A stretch of DNA of 64,000 nucleotides from Candidatus Harrisonbacteria bacterium (GTDB lineage Bacteria; Patescibacteriota; Minisyncoccia; UBA6257; 1-14-0-10-40-38). The stretch spans positions 55,736 to 119,735 of the forward strand of contig JAHFLD010000003.1 in the NCBI GenBank assembly GCA_023245035.1. The letters run 5' to 3'. Below are positions 5,893 to 8,968 of the stretch, piece after piece; position 1 is the first letter of the stretch; each line of letters opens with the position of its first letter. The notes beneath the pieces were generated by a model. It had not been told where the DNA came from. It searched no databases and worked only from the letters and a program-made list of their open reading frames with translations. Made by a program: the position numbers and the translations under genes.

Positions 5893-6876
5893 AGGATTTT
5901 GGTAAATTCCGTGGAGAGTTTTTCCGATTTACTTGCCCACTGATTGTGGGCATTTTTATTATTTCCCCGTCTAGCGTATCTATTGCTTGTGAGCCTATTG
6001 GCATAATGTGATTAGGCGCTATAATTTGTTTATTGAGCGTGAGATTTTAGGGTTATATGAGGTGGGGCCTTCCAAGAAGGTCCAAGCACTGCATCCCAAC
6101 AAAATCCCGCGCTCTTTTTTTTCATCTCTTGGGCGTAGAGACTGTTTCGGTCTATGCCCACAGGGGAGTTGCGAGGGTGTTGACATGCTTTTTGATCTGG
6201 CTATACTTACTTTTACCTAATGAAGATTTTGCGACATACCAGGTGCGGCTCCTGACGTCTGTCTTTTGTTCTCTTCGAGAACTAGCCGCCCGCGAGGCGG
6301 TTTTTCATTAGGGCAATGCGAATGACGCGAAAAGGTTTACGAAATCATTTTTCTGCCTCATACTTCGTGACTCATATATAGGAAGTTCTGCGCTATCTGG
6401 ACTGGAGGATCTCGAGAACAGATAGTGCGGCGCTTAGTCGCACAATTTAAAAACGACTGAACTTTGATAATTTTAGATTGGGTCTTTTGTGTTTTGAAGA
6501 AGAGAGTGATTATATCCGATGCTTTAGTCGGCATCTGGATGATCAATTTGGGATTTGTGGTTAAACGCGCCCGGGATTTATTCCGGGTGTTAAGGGCGTA
6601 TGGTGGATGCCTAGACACAAAGTAGCGATGAAGGACGTGGCGTGGCTGCGATAAGCTTCGGGGAGGTGCTTAGCAACCTTTGATCCGGAGATTTCCGAAT
6701 GGGAAAACCCAATGCGGTAAACCCGCATTACTTCGACCTTGAGTCGAAGTGCTTACCCGCTGAAGTGAAACATCTCAGTAGGCGGAGGAAAAGAAAACAA
6801 TGCCGTTGTGGAACAACGGCGATTCCCTTAGTAGCGGCGAGCGAAACGGGAACAGCCCAAACCTGGTTGTGCTTCG

Positions 6877-6976
6877 CACACTATCAACGAATAGCGAATA
6901 AAAAACCGAATGTACGAATGGATTAAATCCTCATTCGTAAATTCGCAATAGATTCGTAATTCGCTGATGAGCGTGC
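6877..6976 (+). repeat. 100-nt hairpin insertion copy 1 in 23S (helix 9/10 region), IVS-like
   Basis: Identical over 100 nt to the copies at 7475 and 8109. Internally four CGAAT units followed by four ATTCG units, giving a long imperfect hairpin. Flanked by a short copy-specific inverted repeat. Confidence 0.8.
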
Positions 6977-7474
6977 GGAGCGTAGCTGGGGGTTGTAAGG
7001 TAGAGACTTCTTGCTCATCGCCCAGTTCTTGAATAGTCGAGGACTTGGCGATCCGCAGGAAAAGAGTAAAAAATTCGCTAGTTAGCCGAGGCCGTTGGAA
7101 AGCGGCGCCAGAGCGGGTGATAGCCCCGTAGGCGAAAACATGCGAACTCTTGTTTCTATTCTTGAGTACCTCGAGGCAAACAAACCTTGAGGGAATCCGG
7201 GAGTACTATCTCCTAAGGCTGAATATACTTTGTGATCGATAGTGAACTAGTACCGTGAGGGAAAGGTAAAAAGAACCCCGGAAGGGGAGTGAAATAGAAC
7301 CTGAAACCATATGCTTACAAGGAAGTGGAGCCCAATCTCGTAGCAATACGAGCCGGGTGACGCTGTGCCTATTGAAGAATGAGCCAACGACTTATTCTGT
7401 ACTGCTCATCTAAGCCATCTCTGATGGTGAAGGTAAAGCGAAAGCGAGTCTTAATAGGGCGATGTCGTGCTTCG

Positions 7475-7574
7475 CACACTATCAACGAATAGCGAATAAA
7501 AAACCGAATGTACGAATGGATTAAATCCTCATTCGTAAATTCGCAATAGATTCGTAATTCGCTGATGAGCGTGC
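7475..7574 (+). repeat. 100-nt hairpin insertion copy 2 in 23S at the helix-25 position (E. coli about 540-550), a classical IVS site
   Basis: Inserted between ...TCTTAATAGGGCGATGTC and AAGCAGTACGGGATAGACCCGAAGCC, corresponding to E. coli ...TCTTAACTGGGCG / GGGTATAGACCCGAAACC. Confidence 0.8.
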
Positions 7575-8108
7575 GGGGCACGCACAAGCAGTACGGGATA
7601 GACCCGAAGCCAGACGAGCTTACCCTGGGCAGGATGAAGTCCCGAGAAATCGGGATGGAGGTCCGAACTGGTGGGTTGTGCAAAACCCTCGGATGACCTG
7701 GGGTAGGGAGTGAAAAGCTAATCGAGTTTGGTAATAGCTGGTTCTCTCCGAAATAGTTTTAGGACTAGCGCTTCGTAAAAAGTCGTGAGGGGTAGAGCTA
7801 CTGGTTCGGGGGTATAGGGCGAAAGCTCGACCTTCGAGTCAAACTCCGAATACTCACGATTACGCGAAGTAGTCAGTACGTGGGGGCCAAGCTCCATGTA
7901 CGCAAGGGGAACAGCCCAGATCGCAGTCTAAGGTCCCTAAATTCTTACTAAGTGTTAAAGGTAGTCATCACCCATAGACAGATAGGAGGTTGGCTTAGAG
8001 GTAGCCATCCTTTAAAGAGTGTGTAACAACTCACTATTCGACGGTTGGTGGCGCCAAAAATGTACCGGGGCTAAGTAAGATACCGAAGACGCGGGTGTGT
8101 GTGCGTAG

Positions 8109-8208
8109 CACACTATCAACGAATAGCGAATAAAAAACCGAATGTACGAATGGATTAAATCCTCATTCGTAAATTCGGAATAGATTCGTAATTCGCTGAT
8201 GAGCGTGC
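8109..8208 (+). repeat. 100-nt hairpin insertion copy 3 in 23S at the helix-45 position (E. coli about 1170), a classical IVS site
   Basis: Inserted between ACCGAAGACGCGGG and GGTAGGAGAGC, corresponding to E. coli CACCGAAGCTGCGG ... GGGTAGGGGAGCG. One substitution relative to copies 1 and 2. Confidence 0.8.
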
Positions 8209-8968
8209 TACGCGTACACGCGGTAGGAGAGCATTTCTAGTGCGCTGAAGCGTGAGCCGCGAGGCCGCGTGGAGCGCTAGGAAGAGAGAATGTTGGTATG
8301 AGTAACCACATTTCCTATGAGAAATAGGAACCCCGAAAATCCAAGGTTTCCGTGGCAATGACAATCAACCACGGGTTAGGCGATCCTAAGGCGATGGTGA
8401 AAACCGCAGCTGACGGGAAGCCGGTTAATATTCCGGCCCATGCATATTTGTGCGATGGAGTGACGGAGGAAAAAAGATTGAGCGCCTTAATGGTTTGGCG
8501 TCGGGCGTGTTAAGGGACGTACCCCTGGAAAATCCGGAGTACTGTGTTTAATCACGAGTTCCGCGCACGTACGTAAGGTGAAGTTTTTACTTCGCTAATT
8601 CAATCGAAGAGCCTTCCGAGAAAAACTTCTAAGTTTAGAATATGGATTTCGTACCGTAAACCGACACAGGTGGATAGGGCGAGTAGCCCAAGGGGAACGA
8701 GTGATTCTTCGTTAAGGAACTCGGCAAAAAAGCGGCCGTAAGTTAGCGATAAGGCCTGCCCTTCGCAAGAAGGGCCGCAGCGAAAGTATCTCTGGCGACT
8801 GTTTACCAAAAACACAGCTCCCTGCTAACTCGCAAGAGGATGTATAGGGGGTGACGCCTGACCGATGCGAGAAGGTCAACGGTGGCTGTGCCAGGTAGTT
8901 TACTCTGTCTGGTGCGGACTGCCCGAAGCCCTCGTCAATGTCAGCGATAACTATAATCGTTCTAAGGT

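What the first reader, a model, noticed from the sequence alone, without database searches (positions are those of the whole stretch)
6871..8221. One 100-nt hairpin element inserted three times in the 23S rRNA at helix-9, helix-25 and helix-45 positions
Three insertions in the 23S (6877-6976, 7475-7574, 8109-8208) have an identical 100-nt core with a single substitution. Each is flanked by short inverted repeats that differ between copies. The core is four CGAAT units followed by four ATTCG units, so it can fold into a hairpin of about 45 bp. Copies 2 and 3 sit exactly at the helix-25 and helix-45 sites where intervening sequences (IVSs) occur in Salmonella, Campylobacter and Leptospira, where RNase III excises them and fragments the 23S. 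Known IVSs at different helices of one gene normally differ in sequence. Near-identity at three sites suggests recent spread of a single mobile hairpin element within one gene, like a MITE inside rRNA. A partial relative (TTACGAATGTACGAAT...) lies in the intergenic region at 5112-5150.
Basis: partly seen in the sequence, partly recalled or inferred. Interest (0 to 1): 0.72.

Follow-up and report, generated by a model that had tools for sequence, protein, structure and literature searches.

The report
Mobile hairpin copied thrice into 23S
Three near-identical 100-nt hairpins sit at the tips of three surface helices of one bacterium's 23S rRNA gene; they are the gene-less form of a widespread, apparently undescribed inverted-repeat element that normally carries a small nuclease gene, which gives a concrete, testable origin for rRNA "intervening sequences".

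Summary
The repeat is real. Three copies (6866-6981, 7464-7579, 8098-8213) share a 101-nt core with one substitution. Each folds into a ~49-bp stem-loop (z about -9). Exactly three copies exist in the 64-kb window, all in the 23S.

Copy 1 is in the hairpin E. coli lacks near position 277 (H15 by my reading). Copy 2 is at H31/H31a (~650). Only copy 3 is at the classical H45 IVS site.

The element is not private to this gene. It belongs to a multi-phylum family of hairpins built from CGAAT/ATTCG units (CPR, Chloroflexota, Bacteroidota and others). These are mostly intergenic, absent from Rfam, and not found in my literature searches.

In full-length relatives the same arms bracket a GxxExxY (PD-(D/E)XK nuclease) gene: 7 of 7 homologues sampled blind and 6 of 7 found in hairpin-selected loci. 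The 23S inserts are therefore ORF-less, MITE-like derivatives. A diverged member also sits inside a 16S gene of another CPR lineage.

Conservation is of the repeated units (no covariation), which points to protein recognition of the arms.

Not shown: excision by RNase III, the mobility mechanism, and empty-site alleles.

Verdict: a new variant of the IVS/MITE kind; interest 0.7.

The parts
6585..10452 (+). 23S rRNA gene that hosts the three copies (3,868 nt against a 2,925-position model)
   Evidence: Rfam RF02541, 2241.9 bits, full length. The extra length is made up of the three hairpins, two intron-like insertions and smaller expansions.
6866..6981 (+). Copy 1. Family element proper (ATCAAC...GCTGAT) = 6883-6968; invariant core = 6876-6976. 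It lies in the terminal loop of the hairpin at LSU model 274-296 (after E. coli ~277; H15 by my assignment).
   Evidence: Repeat family D1; alignment A1; fold -58.5 kcal/mol, z -8.6; model R1 86.9 bits; position.
7464..7579 (+). Copy 2. Element 7481-7566; core 7474-7574. It lies at E. coli ~648-655. Rfam puts it in the loop of the hairpin at model 676-691 (H31). An equally good reading leaves H31 (AGUCU-UAAUA-GGGCG) intact and places the insert just 3' of it, the H31a position.
   Evidence: -55.7 kcal/mol, z -9.1; 86.9 bits.
8098..8213 (+). Copy 3. Element 8115-8200; core 8108-8208, with G8178 in place of C. It lies in the terminal loop of helix 45 (LSU model ~1207-1230; E. coli ~1164-1185).
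   Evidence: -63.9 kcal/mol, z -9.9; 86.3 bits.
5114..5195 (+). Probable decayed fourth copy in intergenic DNA about 1.4 kb upstream of the 23S. The 5' arm is intact in family spacing (ACGAAT-GT-ACGAAT-CTGTA-CGAAA-AT-ACGAAT) and is followed by TAAATCC, as in the element's loop. The 3' arm is degenerate.
   Evidence: It is the only other CGAAT cluster in the window. Local alignment to copy 1 scores 38 against shuffles of 23 +/- 4.4 (maximum 47). Model R1 does not detect it.

Best explanation
The three inserts are ORF-less, MITE-like copies of a terminal-inverted-repeat element. Each arm is an array of four CGAAT units ending in ATCAAC / GTTGAT. Full-length members of the same family carry a ~130-aa GxxExxY protein (PD-(D/E)XK nuclease fold, catalytic residues invariant) exactly between the arms. 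The short forms are internal-deletion derivatives.

In this CPR (Parcubacteria-like) bacterium the short form has entered, or been copied between, the tips of three solvent-exposed 23S helices (H15, H31/H31a, H45). An extra stem-loop does not disturb the ribosome core at these positions.

Inferred steps:
1. The conserved CGAAT units are recognition sites for a protein, most plausibly the GxxExxY nuclease acting in trans, which drives insertion or copying at the DNA level.
2. The copies derive from one another, because they share a loop and an 11-bp GC-rich clamp that other family members lack.
3. In the pre-23S transcript each copy forms a ~49-bp stem with a basal duplex of at least 24 bp. RNase III most likely cuts this out, as it does classical intervening sequences, leaving a fragmented but functional 23S.

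Shown here: the copies, the fold, the positions, family membership, and the arm-ORF-arm relatives.
Inferred: the mobility enzyme, the direction of copying, and RNA excision.
For: Copies and fold.

Positions at hairpin tips. H15, H31a and H25 are solvent-exposed expansion sites (PMC5737476).

Family:
- A 22-base degenerate pattern (about 1-2 chance hits expected, my estimate) hit at least 120 loci in species-representative genomes and 0 in 2.9 million viral contigs.
- Alignments A2 and A3 give a shared consensus across CPR, Omnitrophota and Bacteroidota.
- blastn shows 73-90% identity between the window element and these members, 75-81% over the ~90-nt matches.
- Model R1 scores non-training members at 45-76 bits.
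- The habitat is intergenic, with convergent gene pairs outnumbering divergent ones 26 to 9.

ORF-bearing form:
- In L127 the arms are identical to the window's in every unit and both termini, and they bracket a TIGR04256 GxxExxY gene (114.5 bits).
- 6 of 7 GxxExxY ORFs in hairpin-selected loci are bracketed by the units.
- In L017 the ORF-less hairpins keep the ORF's leader as their loop. Loop-less 70-nt forms also exist.
- GxxExxY is the only cargo seen in strict arm-ORF-arm geometry.

Sequence-level conservation: 90% of cells pair, but there is no covariation beyond shuffles, and the variable inter-unit positions are mostly unpaired.

rRNA precedent: the L048 16S carries a family member (46.5 bits, E 1.4e-6) as a 127-nt insertion at a hairpin tip.

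Foreign composition: the element is 34% GC and the 23S 49%.

Excision (indirect evidence):
- Classical IVSs replace terminal loops with a TIR stem that RNase III cuts (PMC4990558, PMC8708148).
- CPR rRNA insertions are reported as removed from transcripts, and short ORF-less ones are presumed to be IVSs (PMC11270868).
Against: - No RNA data, so excision is unproven. Two of the three sites are expansion-segment sites rather than classical IVS sites.
- No RNase III gene is visible in the 64 kb available, which is uninformative either way.
- No GxxExxY gene and no other full copy lies in the window, so an in-genome source of the presumed enzyme is not shown.
- No target-site duplication is visible at any of the three sites or at the intergenic copies inspected by eye.
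- No empty-site allele could be obtained. The sister strain's contig starts 3' of the sites, and a second relative lacks synteny.
- GxxExxY could be passive cargo rather than the mobility enzyme.
- The shared clamp outside the family ends is unexplained.
Confidence: 0.62

Rival explanations
1. Retained expansion segments. The same inserted hairpins are never excised. They stay in the mature 23S as three long surface helices, either tolerated or used structurally.
For: Copies 1 and 2 sit at H15 and H31/H31a, which are retained, solvent-exposed expansion segments in mycobacteria and other bacteria (PMC5737476). The sense-strand fold is more stable than the antisense fold (-58.5 against -50.4 kcal/mol). 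The clamp shows compensatory and G-U changes that preserve pairing in the rRNA sense. E. coli ribosomes work with unprocessed IVSs (cited in PMC8708148).
Against: A basal duplex of at least 24 bp is a typical RNase III substrate (inference). CPR rRNA insertions are reported as removed from transcripts (PMC11270868). The AT-rich, interrupted helices are identical at three unrelated sites, which argues against site-specific structural roles.
Confidence: 0.3
2. Older insertions kept identical by gene conversion. The three sites were colonised long ago, perhaps independently, and intragenic recombination between the 100-nt repeats homogenises their cores. On this view near-identity does not mean recent spread.
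For: The 101-nt core is identical in all three copies, but the sequence immediately outside it differs and shows compensatory changes (UUC/GGA, UUC/GGG, GUA/UAC). That is the pattern expected if conversion tracts end at the core boundary. The copies are only ~600 nt apart and in direct orientation.
Against: Direct repeats 600 nt apart would also favour deletion of essential 23S sequence. This limits viable recombination outcomes but does not exclude conversion. Two copies within one contig of another genome (L071) have different loops, so family members are not routinely homogenised. No data here discriminate between the two readings.
Confidence: 0.25
3. Domesticated binding platform. The CGAAT arrays are bound, as RNA or DNA, by a host protein with a role in ribosome biogenesis or rRNA regulation, and the copies are kept by selection rather than being selfish passengers.
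For: The units are conserved in sequence and not through covariation. All three full copies in the 64 kb are in the rRNA gene. A further unit array lies upstream of the operon at 5114-5195, and one family copy lies just after the L048 16S.
Against: In the other ~120 loci the family is intergenic next to unrelated genes, with no other copy inside an rRNA gene except L048. The association is with a nuclease gene of sporadic distribution, described as showing 'multiple transfers' (PMC3424549). No candidate host binding protein was identified.
Confidence: 0.08
4. Assembly artefact. A repeat from elsewhere in the metagenome was wrongly threaded into the 23S three times.
For: rRNA regions are hard to assemble. 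The Logan assembly of another run breaks at the start of the 23S, and the sister strain's contig starts inside its 23S.
Against: Each copy has its own flanks that are complementary to each other and continue the host helix. The surrounding rRNA aligns colinearly to the Rfam model and to E. coli. An independent ENA contig of 123,796 nt has the same 5,751-nt spacing between the genes flanking the rRNA. At 116 nt the repeat is shorter than typical reads.
Confidence: 0.03

Closest known systems
Classical 23S rRNA intervening sequences (Salmonella, Yersinia, Campylobacter, Leptospira, Coxiella)
   Same: An extra stem-loop replaces the small terminal loop of a surface helix. Terminal inverted repeats form a long stem (28 bp in Coxiella). 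GC content is lower than the host gene. One copy sits at H45. Some IVSs carry a small ORF between the arms, as the full-length relatives of this element do (PMC4990558, PMC8708148).
   Different: Here one sequence occupies three helices of one gene, two of them (H15, H31/H31a) not classical IVS sites. The arms are arrays of a 5-nt unit. The same element is abundant outside rRNA genes. The ORF in relatives is a GxxExxY nuclease, not the S23p/23S_rRNA_IVP four-helix-bundle protein. RNase III excision is untested.
Short, ORF-less 'uncharacterized insertion sequences' in CPR rRNA genes (Tsurumaki et al. 2024, PMC11270868; Brown et al. 2015 as cited there)
   Same: The host group is the same (CPR). 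The inserts are under 200 nt, have no ORF and no intron signature, sit at the tops of stem-loops, and coexist with group I introns at ~1931 and ~2593, as in this gene.
   Different: That survey gives positions and lengths only. It does not describe a sequence family, repetition within a gene, a relation to dispersed genomic repeats or a link to PDDEXK genes.
Bacterial MITEs and palindromic repeats (Correia elements of Neisseria, REP/REPIN, Rickettsia palindromic elements); this comparison rests on my own knowledge
   Same: Short, ORF-less, TIR-bounded and multi-copy. Mostly intergenic near gene 3' ends. Hairpin-forming when transcribed; Correia transcripts are RNase III substrates. Rickettsial elements insert into genes without destroying them.
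   Different: The parent element encodes a PD-(D/E)XK GxxExxY protein rather than a DDE or Y1 (RAYT) transposase. The arms are built from 2-4 repeated CGAAT units. No target-site duplication is seen. The family spans several phyla with the same unit. Insertion is into rRNA helices.
MITEs in functional rRNA genes of the microsporidian Nosema bombycis, and mitochondrial GC-cluster or double-hairpin elements in rRNA variable regions
   Same: Small hairpin or MITE elements are tolerated inside expressed rRNA genes at variable regions (Nosema: cited in PMC10946416; the mitochondrial cases are from my own knowledge).
   Different: Those cases are eukaryotic or organellar. That review's table of transposable elements in rDNA lists no bacterial MITE case.
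rRNA expansion segments H15, H16a, H31a of Actinobacteria, Thermotoga and spirochaetes
   Same: Same positions for copies 1 and 2, on the solvent side of the large subunit (PMC5737476).
   Different: Those segments are lineage-specific rRNA sequences retained in the ribosome. They are not copies of a dispersed repeat and are not identical to each other.

Membership tests
23S rRNA intervening sequence (RNase III-excised IVS) | Extra sequence relative to homologous 23S genes, replacing or extending the terminal loop of a helix | tested here: met
   Insertions of 112-122 nt relative to the Rfam LSU model and E. coli, at hairpin tips. For copy 2 an alternative placement just 3' of H31 is equally good.
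23S rRNA intervening sequence (RNase III-excised IVS) | Location at one of the recurrent IVS sites (helix 9, 25 or 45) | tested here: inconclusive
   Copy 3 is in H45 (met). Copies 1 and 2 are at E. coli ~277 and ~650 (not met). Site list from PMC4990558.
23S rRNA intervening sequence (RNase III-excised IVS) | Terminal complementary sequences form a long double-stranded stem suitable for RNase III | tested here: met
   Predicted basal stems of 15-18 bp continue into 6 more bp across a single bulge, about 49 bp in all; z -8.6 to -9.9.
23S rRNA intervening sequence (RNase III-excised IVS) | Removed from the transcript by RNase III without religation, giving a fragmented 23S | not testable with these tools
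   No RNA data. No rnc gene in the 64 kb available. A related CPR locus does encode RNase III (L040).
MITE / non-autonomous TIR element | Short, no ORF, bounded by terminal inverted repeats | tested here: met
   An 86-nt element, ATCAAC(GAAT)...(ATTC)GCTGAT, with 4+4 units and no ORF.
MITE / non-autonomous TIR element | Multiple dispersed copies in genomes | tested here: met
   At least 120 loci in species-representative genomes, several per contig in some. Three copies plus one decayed copy in the window. The whole source genome could not be scanned.
MITE / non-autonomous TIR element | A longer relative exists with the same termini and a protein-coding gene | tested here: met
   L127, L136-L141 and L017 have the same arms around a GxxExxY gene. 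This is shown in other genomes, not in this organism.
MITE / non-autonomous TIR element | That protein is the transposase which mobilises both forms | not testable with these tools
   GxxExxY has an intact PD-(D/E)XK catalytic set and fold. No activity or mobility data exist; the function is listed as unknown (PMC3424549).
MITE / non-autonomous TIR element | Target-site duplication flanking the insertion | tested here: not met
   No direct repeat flanks any of the three 23S copies or the intergenic copies inspected; the flanks are inverted, not direct. Inspection was by eye only.
MITE / non-autonomous TIR element | Presence/absence polymorphism at orthologous sites | not tested
   Attempts to fetch a sister strain's 5' 23S failed.
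REP / REPIN with RAYT (Y1) transposase | Association with a RAYT gene and the conserved REP terminal motif | tested here: not met
   The associated gene is PF13366/TIGR04256, not a Y1 transposase. The ends are ATCAAC/GTTGAT with CGAAT units.
Group I intron | Match to the group I catalytic core | tested here: not met
   Rfam finds group I signal only at 9936-10136 (58 bits) and weakly at 8979-9168 (16.8 bits), not at the three hairpins.
Any described RNA family (Rfam 15) | Score at or near a family's gathering threshold | tested here: not met
   Only sub-threshold matches to miRNA-precursor models on six loci covering all three architectures. Nothing besides the LSU model overlaps the copies in the window.

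The most novel reading that the evidence does not exclude
The CGAAT-unit arms plus the GxxExxY nuclease form a previously unrecognised class of bacterial mobile element. It would be nuclease-driven rather than DDE- or Y1-transposase-driven, would span CPR, Chloroflexota, Bacteroidota and other phyla, and would leave MITE-like hairpin derivatives. On this reading, its insertion into helix tips is a general source of the short 'uncharacterized' insertions and IVSs in CPR rRNA genes. That would demonstrate the 1990s hypothesis that IVSs are transposon remnants whose ORF provides mobility.
Probability: 0.35. Interest if true: 0.85.

Novelty: new variant of a known kind. Interest (0 to 1): 0.7.

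Why it matters
The origin of rRNA intervening sequences has been open since 1990. The standing hypotheses are 'remnant of transposition' and 'mobile element whose ORF supplies mobility' (PMC4990558), and neither has been tied to an identifiable element.

In this case an IVS-type insert can be assigned to a dispersed repeat family with an ORF-bearing parent. That gives three concrete handles:
- a covariance model that can be run over all CPR rRNA genes;
- a candidate enzyme (GxxExxY) with a defined DNA or RNA motif (CGAAT arrays) that can be tested in vitro;
- a single-gene system with three identical inserts in which RNase III processing can be mapped.

It also gives a first genomic context, and a functional lead, for TIGR04256/PF13366. 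This family has very many members and no known function. It would also characterise part of the 'uncharacterized short insertions' that make CPR rRNA genes unusual.

Tried and rejected
1. Literature search for the unit strings found nothing relevant. Searches for GxxExxY/PDDEXK_3 found no description of flanking repeats.
2. Rfam, at gathering and permissive thresholds, has no family for the hairpins.
3. I could not count copies in the source genome. The metagenome scan with the element's own arm returned 9 loci, none from this organism. The 124-kb ENA contig could not be delivered.
4. I could not get empty-site alleles. The sister strain's contig (L145) starts at window-equivalent 9701. The P0127 relative has no rRNA downstream.
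5. RNA-structure selection is rejected as the basis of family conservation: there is no covariation beyond shuffles, and the variable positions are mostly unpaired.
6. Classical IVS protein (23S_rRNA_IVP) as cargo: none was seen. Only GxxExxY occurs in arm-ORF-arm geometry. ParE, DUF433 and DUF1573 genes merely lie between separate hairpins.
7. Phage vector: 0 hits in viral contigs.
8. Integron attC idea: the ends ATCAAC/GTTGAT share only AAC/GTT with the R''/R' consensus (RYYYAAC/GTTRRRY, from memory). I dropped it by eye, without a model test.
9. RNase III gene in the window: no signature found.
10. The model hit at 51277-51344 (20 bits) lies in coding sequence without units, so it is spurious.
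11. PDB search by sequence for GxxExxY: none. The fold search gives only generic PD-(D/E)XK neighbours.
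Full report
**1. The observation**

The window carries a full-length bacterial 23S rRNA gene at 6585-10452 and a 5S gene at 10848-10963. There is no 16S in the window. Inside the 23S, the repeat finder reports one three-member family of 116 nt at 6866-6981, 7464-7579 and 8098-8213, at 98% and 93% identity to the first copy.

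In the alignment, a 101-nt core (GCACAC...GCGTGC; 6876-6976, 7474-7574, 8108-8208) is invariant except for one C-to-G change at 8178. A 31-mer from the core occurs exactly three times at up to 3 mismatches, and never in 100 shuffles.

Each copy consists of four CGAAT units followed by four ATTCG units. With its flanks, each copy folds into a long interrupted stem-loop of about 49 bp. The energies are -55.7 to -63.9 kcal/mol, against about -29 for shuffles (z -8.6 to -9.9). The sense strand is more stable than the antisense strand.

**2. Where the copies sit**

I aligned the gene to an E. coli 23S and read the Rfam structure lines.

- Copy 1 follows E. coli ~277. It lies in the terminal loop of a hairpin (LSU model 274-296) that E. 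coli lacks. I read this as H15, from its position just 5' of the H16 strand. That label is my own assignment and is not a tool result.
- Copy 2 is at E. coli ~648-655. Rfam places it in the loop of the hairpin at model 676-691 (H31). An equally good reading leaves H31 intact and puts the insert immediately 3' of it, which is the H31a position.
- Copy 3 is in the terminal loop of H45.

H9 (E. coli ~131-148) and H25 (window 7325-7365) carry no copy. Two of the three helix labels in the finding are therefore wrong.

The corrected sites still make sense. H15, H16a, H25 and H31a are solvent-exposed expansion-segment sites in several phyla (PMC5737476).

**3. The element is a member of a large family**

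I scanned one genome per species with a pattern that keeps only the apical architecture (CGAATNNACGAAT, an 8-20 nt loop, ATTCGTNNATTCG; 22 specified bases; I estimate 1-2 chance hits). The scan stopped at its limit with at least 120 loci. The same pattern found nothing in 2.9 million viral contigs.

The hits fall into three architecture classes:
- 2+2 units with GCCA/TGGC ends, mainly in Bacteroidota;
- 3+3 units with GTCAAC/GTTGAC ends, in Chloroflexota;
- 4+4 units with ATCAAC/GTTGAT ends, in many CPR lineages, an Omnitrophota genome and some Bacteroidota.

The 4+4 consensus is ATCAACGAATAACGAAT-cagta-CGAATATACGAAT-loop-ATTCGTAAATTCG-taata-ATTCGTAATTCGTTGAT, with unrelated loops. The window element matches members from other phyla at 73-90% identity, 75-81% over the ~90-nt matches.

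A covariance model built from 16 members scores non-training CPR copies at 50-76 bits and the Chloroflexota form at 45-50 bits.

The normal habitat is intergenic and close to gene ends. Convergent gene pairs outnumber divergent ones 26 to 9. Apart from L048, none of the ~120 other loci contains an rRNA gene. Rfam has no family for these hairpins, and text searches for the unit strings found no description.

**4. The long form carries a nuclease gene**

A metagenome scan with the window element's own 5' arm, loop left free, returned nine loci. In L127 the two arms are identical to the window's in every unit and both termini. Instead of a 13-nt loop, they bracket a 134-aa ORF inserted between prfB and ftsE. 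The ORF is a TIGR04256 "GxxExxY protein" / PF13366 PDDEXK_3 (114.5 bits).

- Among the loci fetched for their hairpins, seven GxxExxY ORFs occur, and six are directly bracketed by the units. This holds in Bacteroidota, Chloroflexota and CPR.
All seven have the 5' arm ending 0-30 nt before the start codon and the 3' arm beginning at or just after the stop. In two cases the stop codon is part of the arm.
- In L017 the neighbouring ORF-less hairpins keep the ORF's 5' leader as their loop. Loop-less 70-nt forms lie next to ORF-bearing ones.
- GxxExxY is the only cargo found in strict arm-ORF-arm geometry.

This is the relationship of a MITE to its parent element.

**5. What is conserved**

On the 16-member alignment, 90% of cells in the hairpin pair. 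There is no covariation beyond the shuffle control. The pairs are the invariant CGAAT/ATTCG units, and the variable positions between units are mostly unpaired. Conservation is therefore of the repeated units in both arms, as expected for arrays of protein-recognition sites in a TIR. It is not selection for an RNA helix. The hairpin potential follows from the inverted arrangement.

**6. rRNA genes as a target**

The model also scores a hairpin inside the 16S gene of a Jorgensenbacteria genome (L048 6682-6762; 46.5 bits, E about 1e-6). It is a 127-nt insertion at the tip of a hairpin at SSU model ~458-465, which I take to be helix 17. A canonical copy lies about 100 nt beyond that 16S. Entry into rRNA helix tips has therefore happened in at least two CPR lineages.

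Both rRNA-resident versions carry a GC-rich clamp outside the AT-rich element and share the junction motifs CACTAT / TGATGAGCG. In the window the clamp is GUGC-nnn-GCAC / GUGC-nnn-GCRY, with compensatory nnn. This feature is unexplained.

In the window, a full-sensitivity model search finds only the three 23S copies. The intergenic stretch 5114-5195 looks like a decayed fourth copy, with a good 5' arm and the start of the loop, but the statistics are modest.

**7. Organism and assembly**

The closest named homologues of a neighbouring protein are from Ca. Harrisonbacteria and Patescibacteria at 62-67% identity, so this is a CPR bacterium.

Its exact RpoB and RpoC occur in NCBI and ENA assemblies. 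A 123,796-nt ENA contig has the same 5,751-nt spacing between the genes that flank the rRNA. Together with the copy-specific, helix-completing flanks, this argues against mis-assembly.

I could not obtain a sister-strain allele of the 5' half of the 23S. The source genome could not be scanned as a whole.

**8. How it most likely works**

Shown: three ORF-less family members at the tips of three surface helices.

Inferred:
- At the DNA level, the arms are recognised by a protein, most plausibly the GxxExxY nuclease supplied in trans. The three copies derive from one another, because they share a loop and clamp that other members lack. No target-site duplication is visible, so a classical DDE-type mechanism is not indicated.
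- At the RNA level, each copy extends its helix by about 49 bp, with a basal duplex of at least 24 bp. Classical IVSs have this form and are cut by RNase III (PMC4990558, PMC8708148). CPR rRNA insertions are reported as removed from transcripts, and short ORF-less ones are presumed to be IVSs (PMC11270868).
- I therefore favour excision and a fragmented 23S (about 0.55-0.6 given the family assignment). Retention as expansion segments is the main rival (about 0.3). Gene conversion could explain the identity of the cores just as well as recent spread.

**9. Comparison with what is known, and novelty**

Functionally the inserts resemble IVSs, and in architecture they resemble MITEs. They meet the structural criteria of an IVS. 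Only one of the three is at a canonical IVS site, and the defining processing step is untested, so I do not file them as proven IVSs.

They meet most MITE criteria: TIRs, no ORF, multiple copies, and a longer relative with the same ends. They lack a visible target-site duplication, and the presumed enzyme is not a known transposase.

The 2024 survey of CPR rRNA insertions records such short inserts only by position and length. A 2024 review of transposable elements in rDNA lists MITEs in functional rRNA genes only for a microsporidian.

As far as these searches reach, three things are new:
- one element present three times in one rRNA gene;
- the multi-phylum CGAAT-unit family itself;
- its tight link to GxxExxY genes.

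I rate it a new variant of a known kind, with interest 0.7. It turns the old transposon-remnant hypothesis for IVSs into something testable with a model, a motif and a candidate enzyme.

Noticed in passing
window 9829-10143 and 8969-9167: Two further insertions in the 23S at E. coli ~2594 and ~1932. The first contains a group I intron (Rfam 58 bits at 9936-10136). The second gives only a weak group I match (16.8 bits, E 0.04). Both lack ORFs and share an AAGATATAGTCC motif. Both positions match frequent CPR intron sites (1931, 2593) in PMC11270868.
   Followed up: partly
L145 568-1365 (sister strain GCA_964367145.1) against window ~10207: The sister strain's 23S has an extra ~800-nt insertion with a LAGLIDADG_1 ORF (678-1202) at a point where the window's gene is uninterrupted. 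This is a presence/absence polymorphism for an intron-like element between strains that are ~81-88% identical there.
   Followed up: partly
window 6796-6811, 7005-7067, 7332-7342, 8552-8569: Smaller lineage-specific expansions of the 23S relative to E. coli (16, ~62, 11 and 18 nt), plus a 17-nt deletion at E. coli 1710-1726. The 62-nt one follows copy 1 closely, in the H16-H18 region.
   Followed up: no
window 1-64000: The 23S-5S pair has no 16S within 6.5 kb upstream or 53 kb downstream, so the rRNA genes appear unlinked.
   Followed up: no
window 5266-5892: A 208-aa Cys-rich ORF lies directly downstream of the decayed copy at 5114-5195. It has no Pfam or NCBIfam match. It is called as a gene in independent assemblies.
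   Followed up: partly
window 46777-46849 and 46922-46994: Two 73-nt direct repeats (96% identical) lie 145 nt apart in an intergenic region. They are unrelated to the CGAAT element.
   Followed up: no
L048 4181-7331 (Ca. Jorgensenbacteria 16S): This 16S gene is 3,151 nt long. Besides the 127-nt family hairpin, it has a 153-nt insertion at SSU model ~188 and a group I intron (6074-6283, 76.9 bits). A canonical 4+4 copy sits ~100 nt past its 3' end, and no 23S follows.
   Followed up: partly
L123 2235-2418 (also L125, L126); L134 1415-1483 and 1908-2091: Composite arrangements occur: an outer arm, an inner complete element and extra arms (nested or tandem insertions), and runs of up to 8-9 units on one side of a GxxExxY gene. 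This suggests repeated insertion into or next to existing copies.
   Followed up: no
L033 3122-3714: An Ignavibacteria locus has CGAAT-unit clusters recurring every 180 nt (four repeats), i.e. a tandem array containing partial elements.
   Followed up: no
L029 2272-3186; L044 2918-3685: In Bacteroidota, pairs of 2+2 hairpins bracket small accessory modules (a ParE toxin with a partner ORF; a DUF433 protein). This hints that the hairpins may also delimit other small cassettes.
   Followed up: partly
L127, L137, L138 (prfB|ftsE junction): Three related CPR genomes carry the ORF-bearing element at the same prfB-ftsE junction, with GxxExxY proteins only 65-72% identical. L137 and L138 also have a loop-less copy between ftsE and ftsX. 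The insertion at that site therefore looks old and vertically inherited.
   Followed up: no
L040 533-1225: The gene next to a 3+3/4+4 hairpin in a Ca. Staskawiczbacteria contig is an RNase III (NERLEFLGDAVLE motif, recognised by eye). This shows that related CPR lineages encode the enzyme, but the adjacency is probably coincidental.
   Followed up: no
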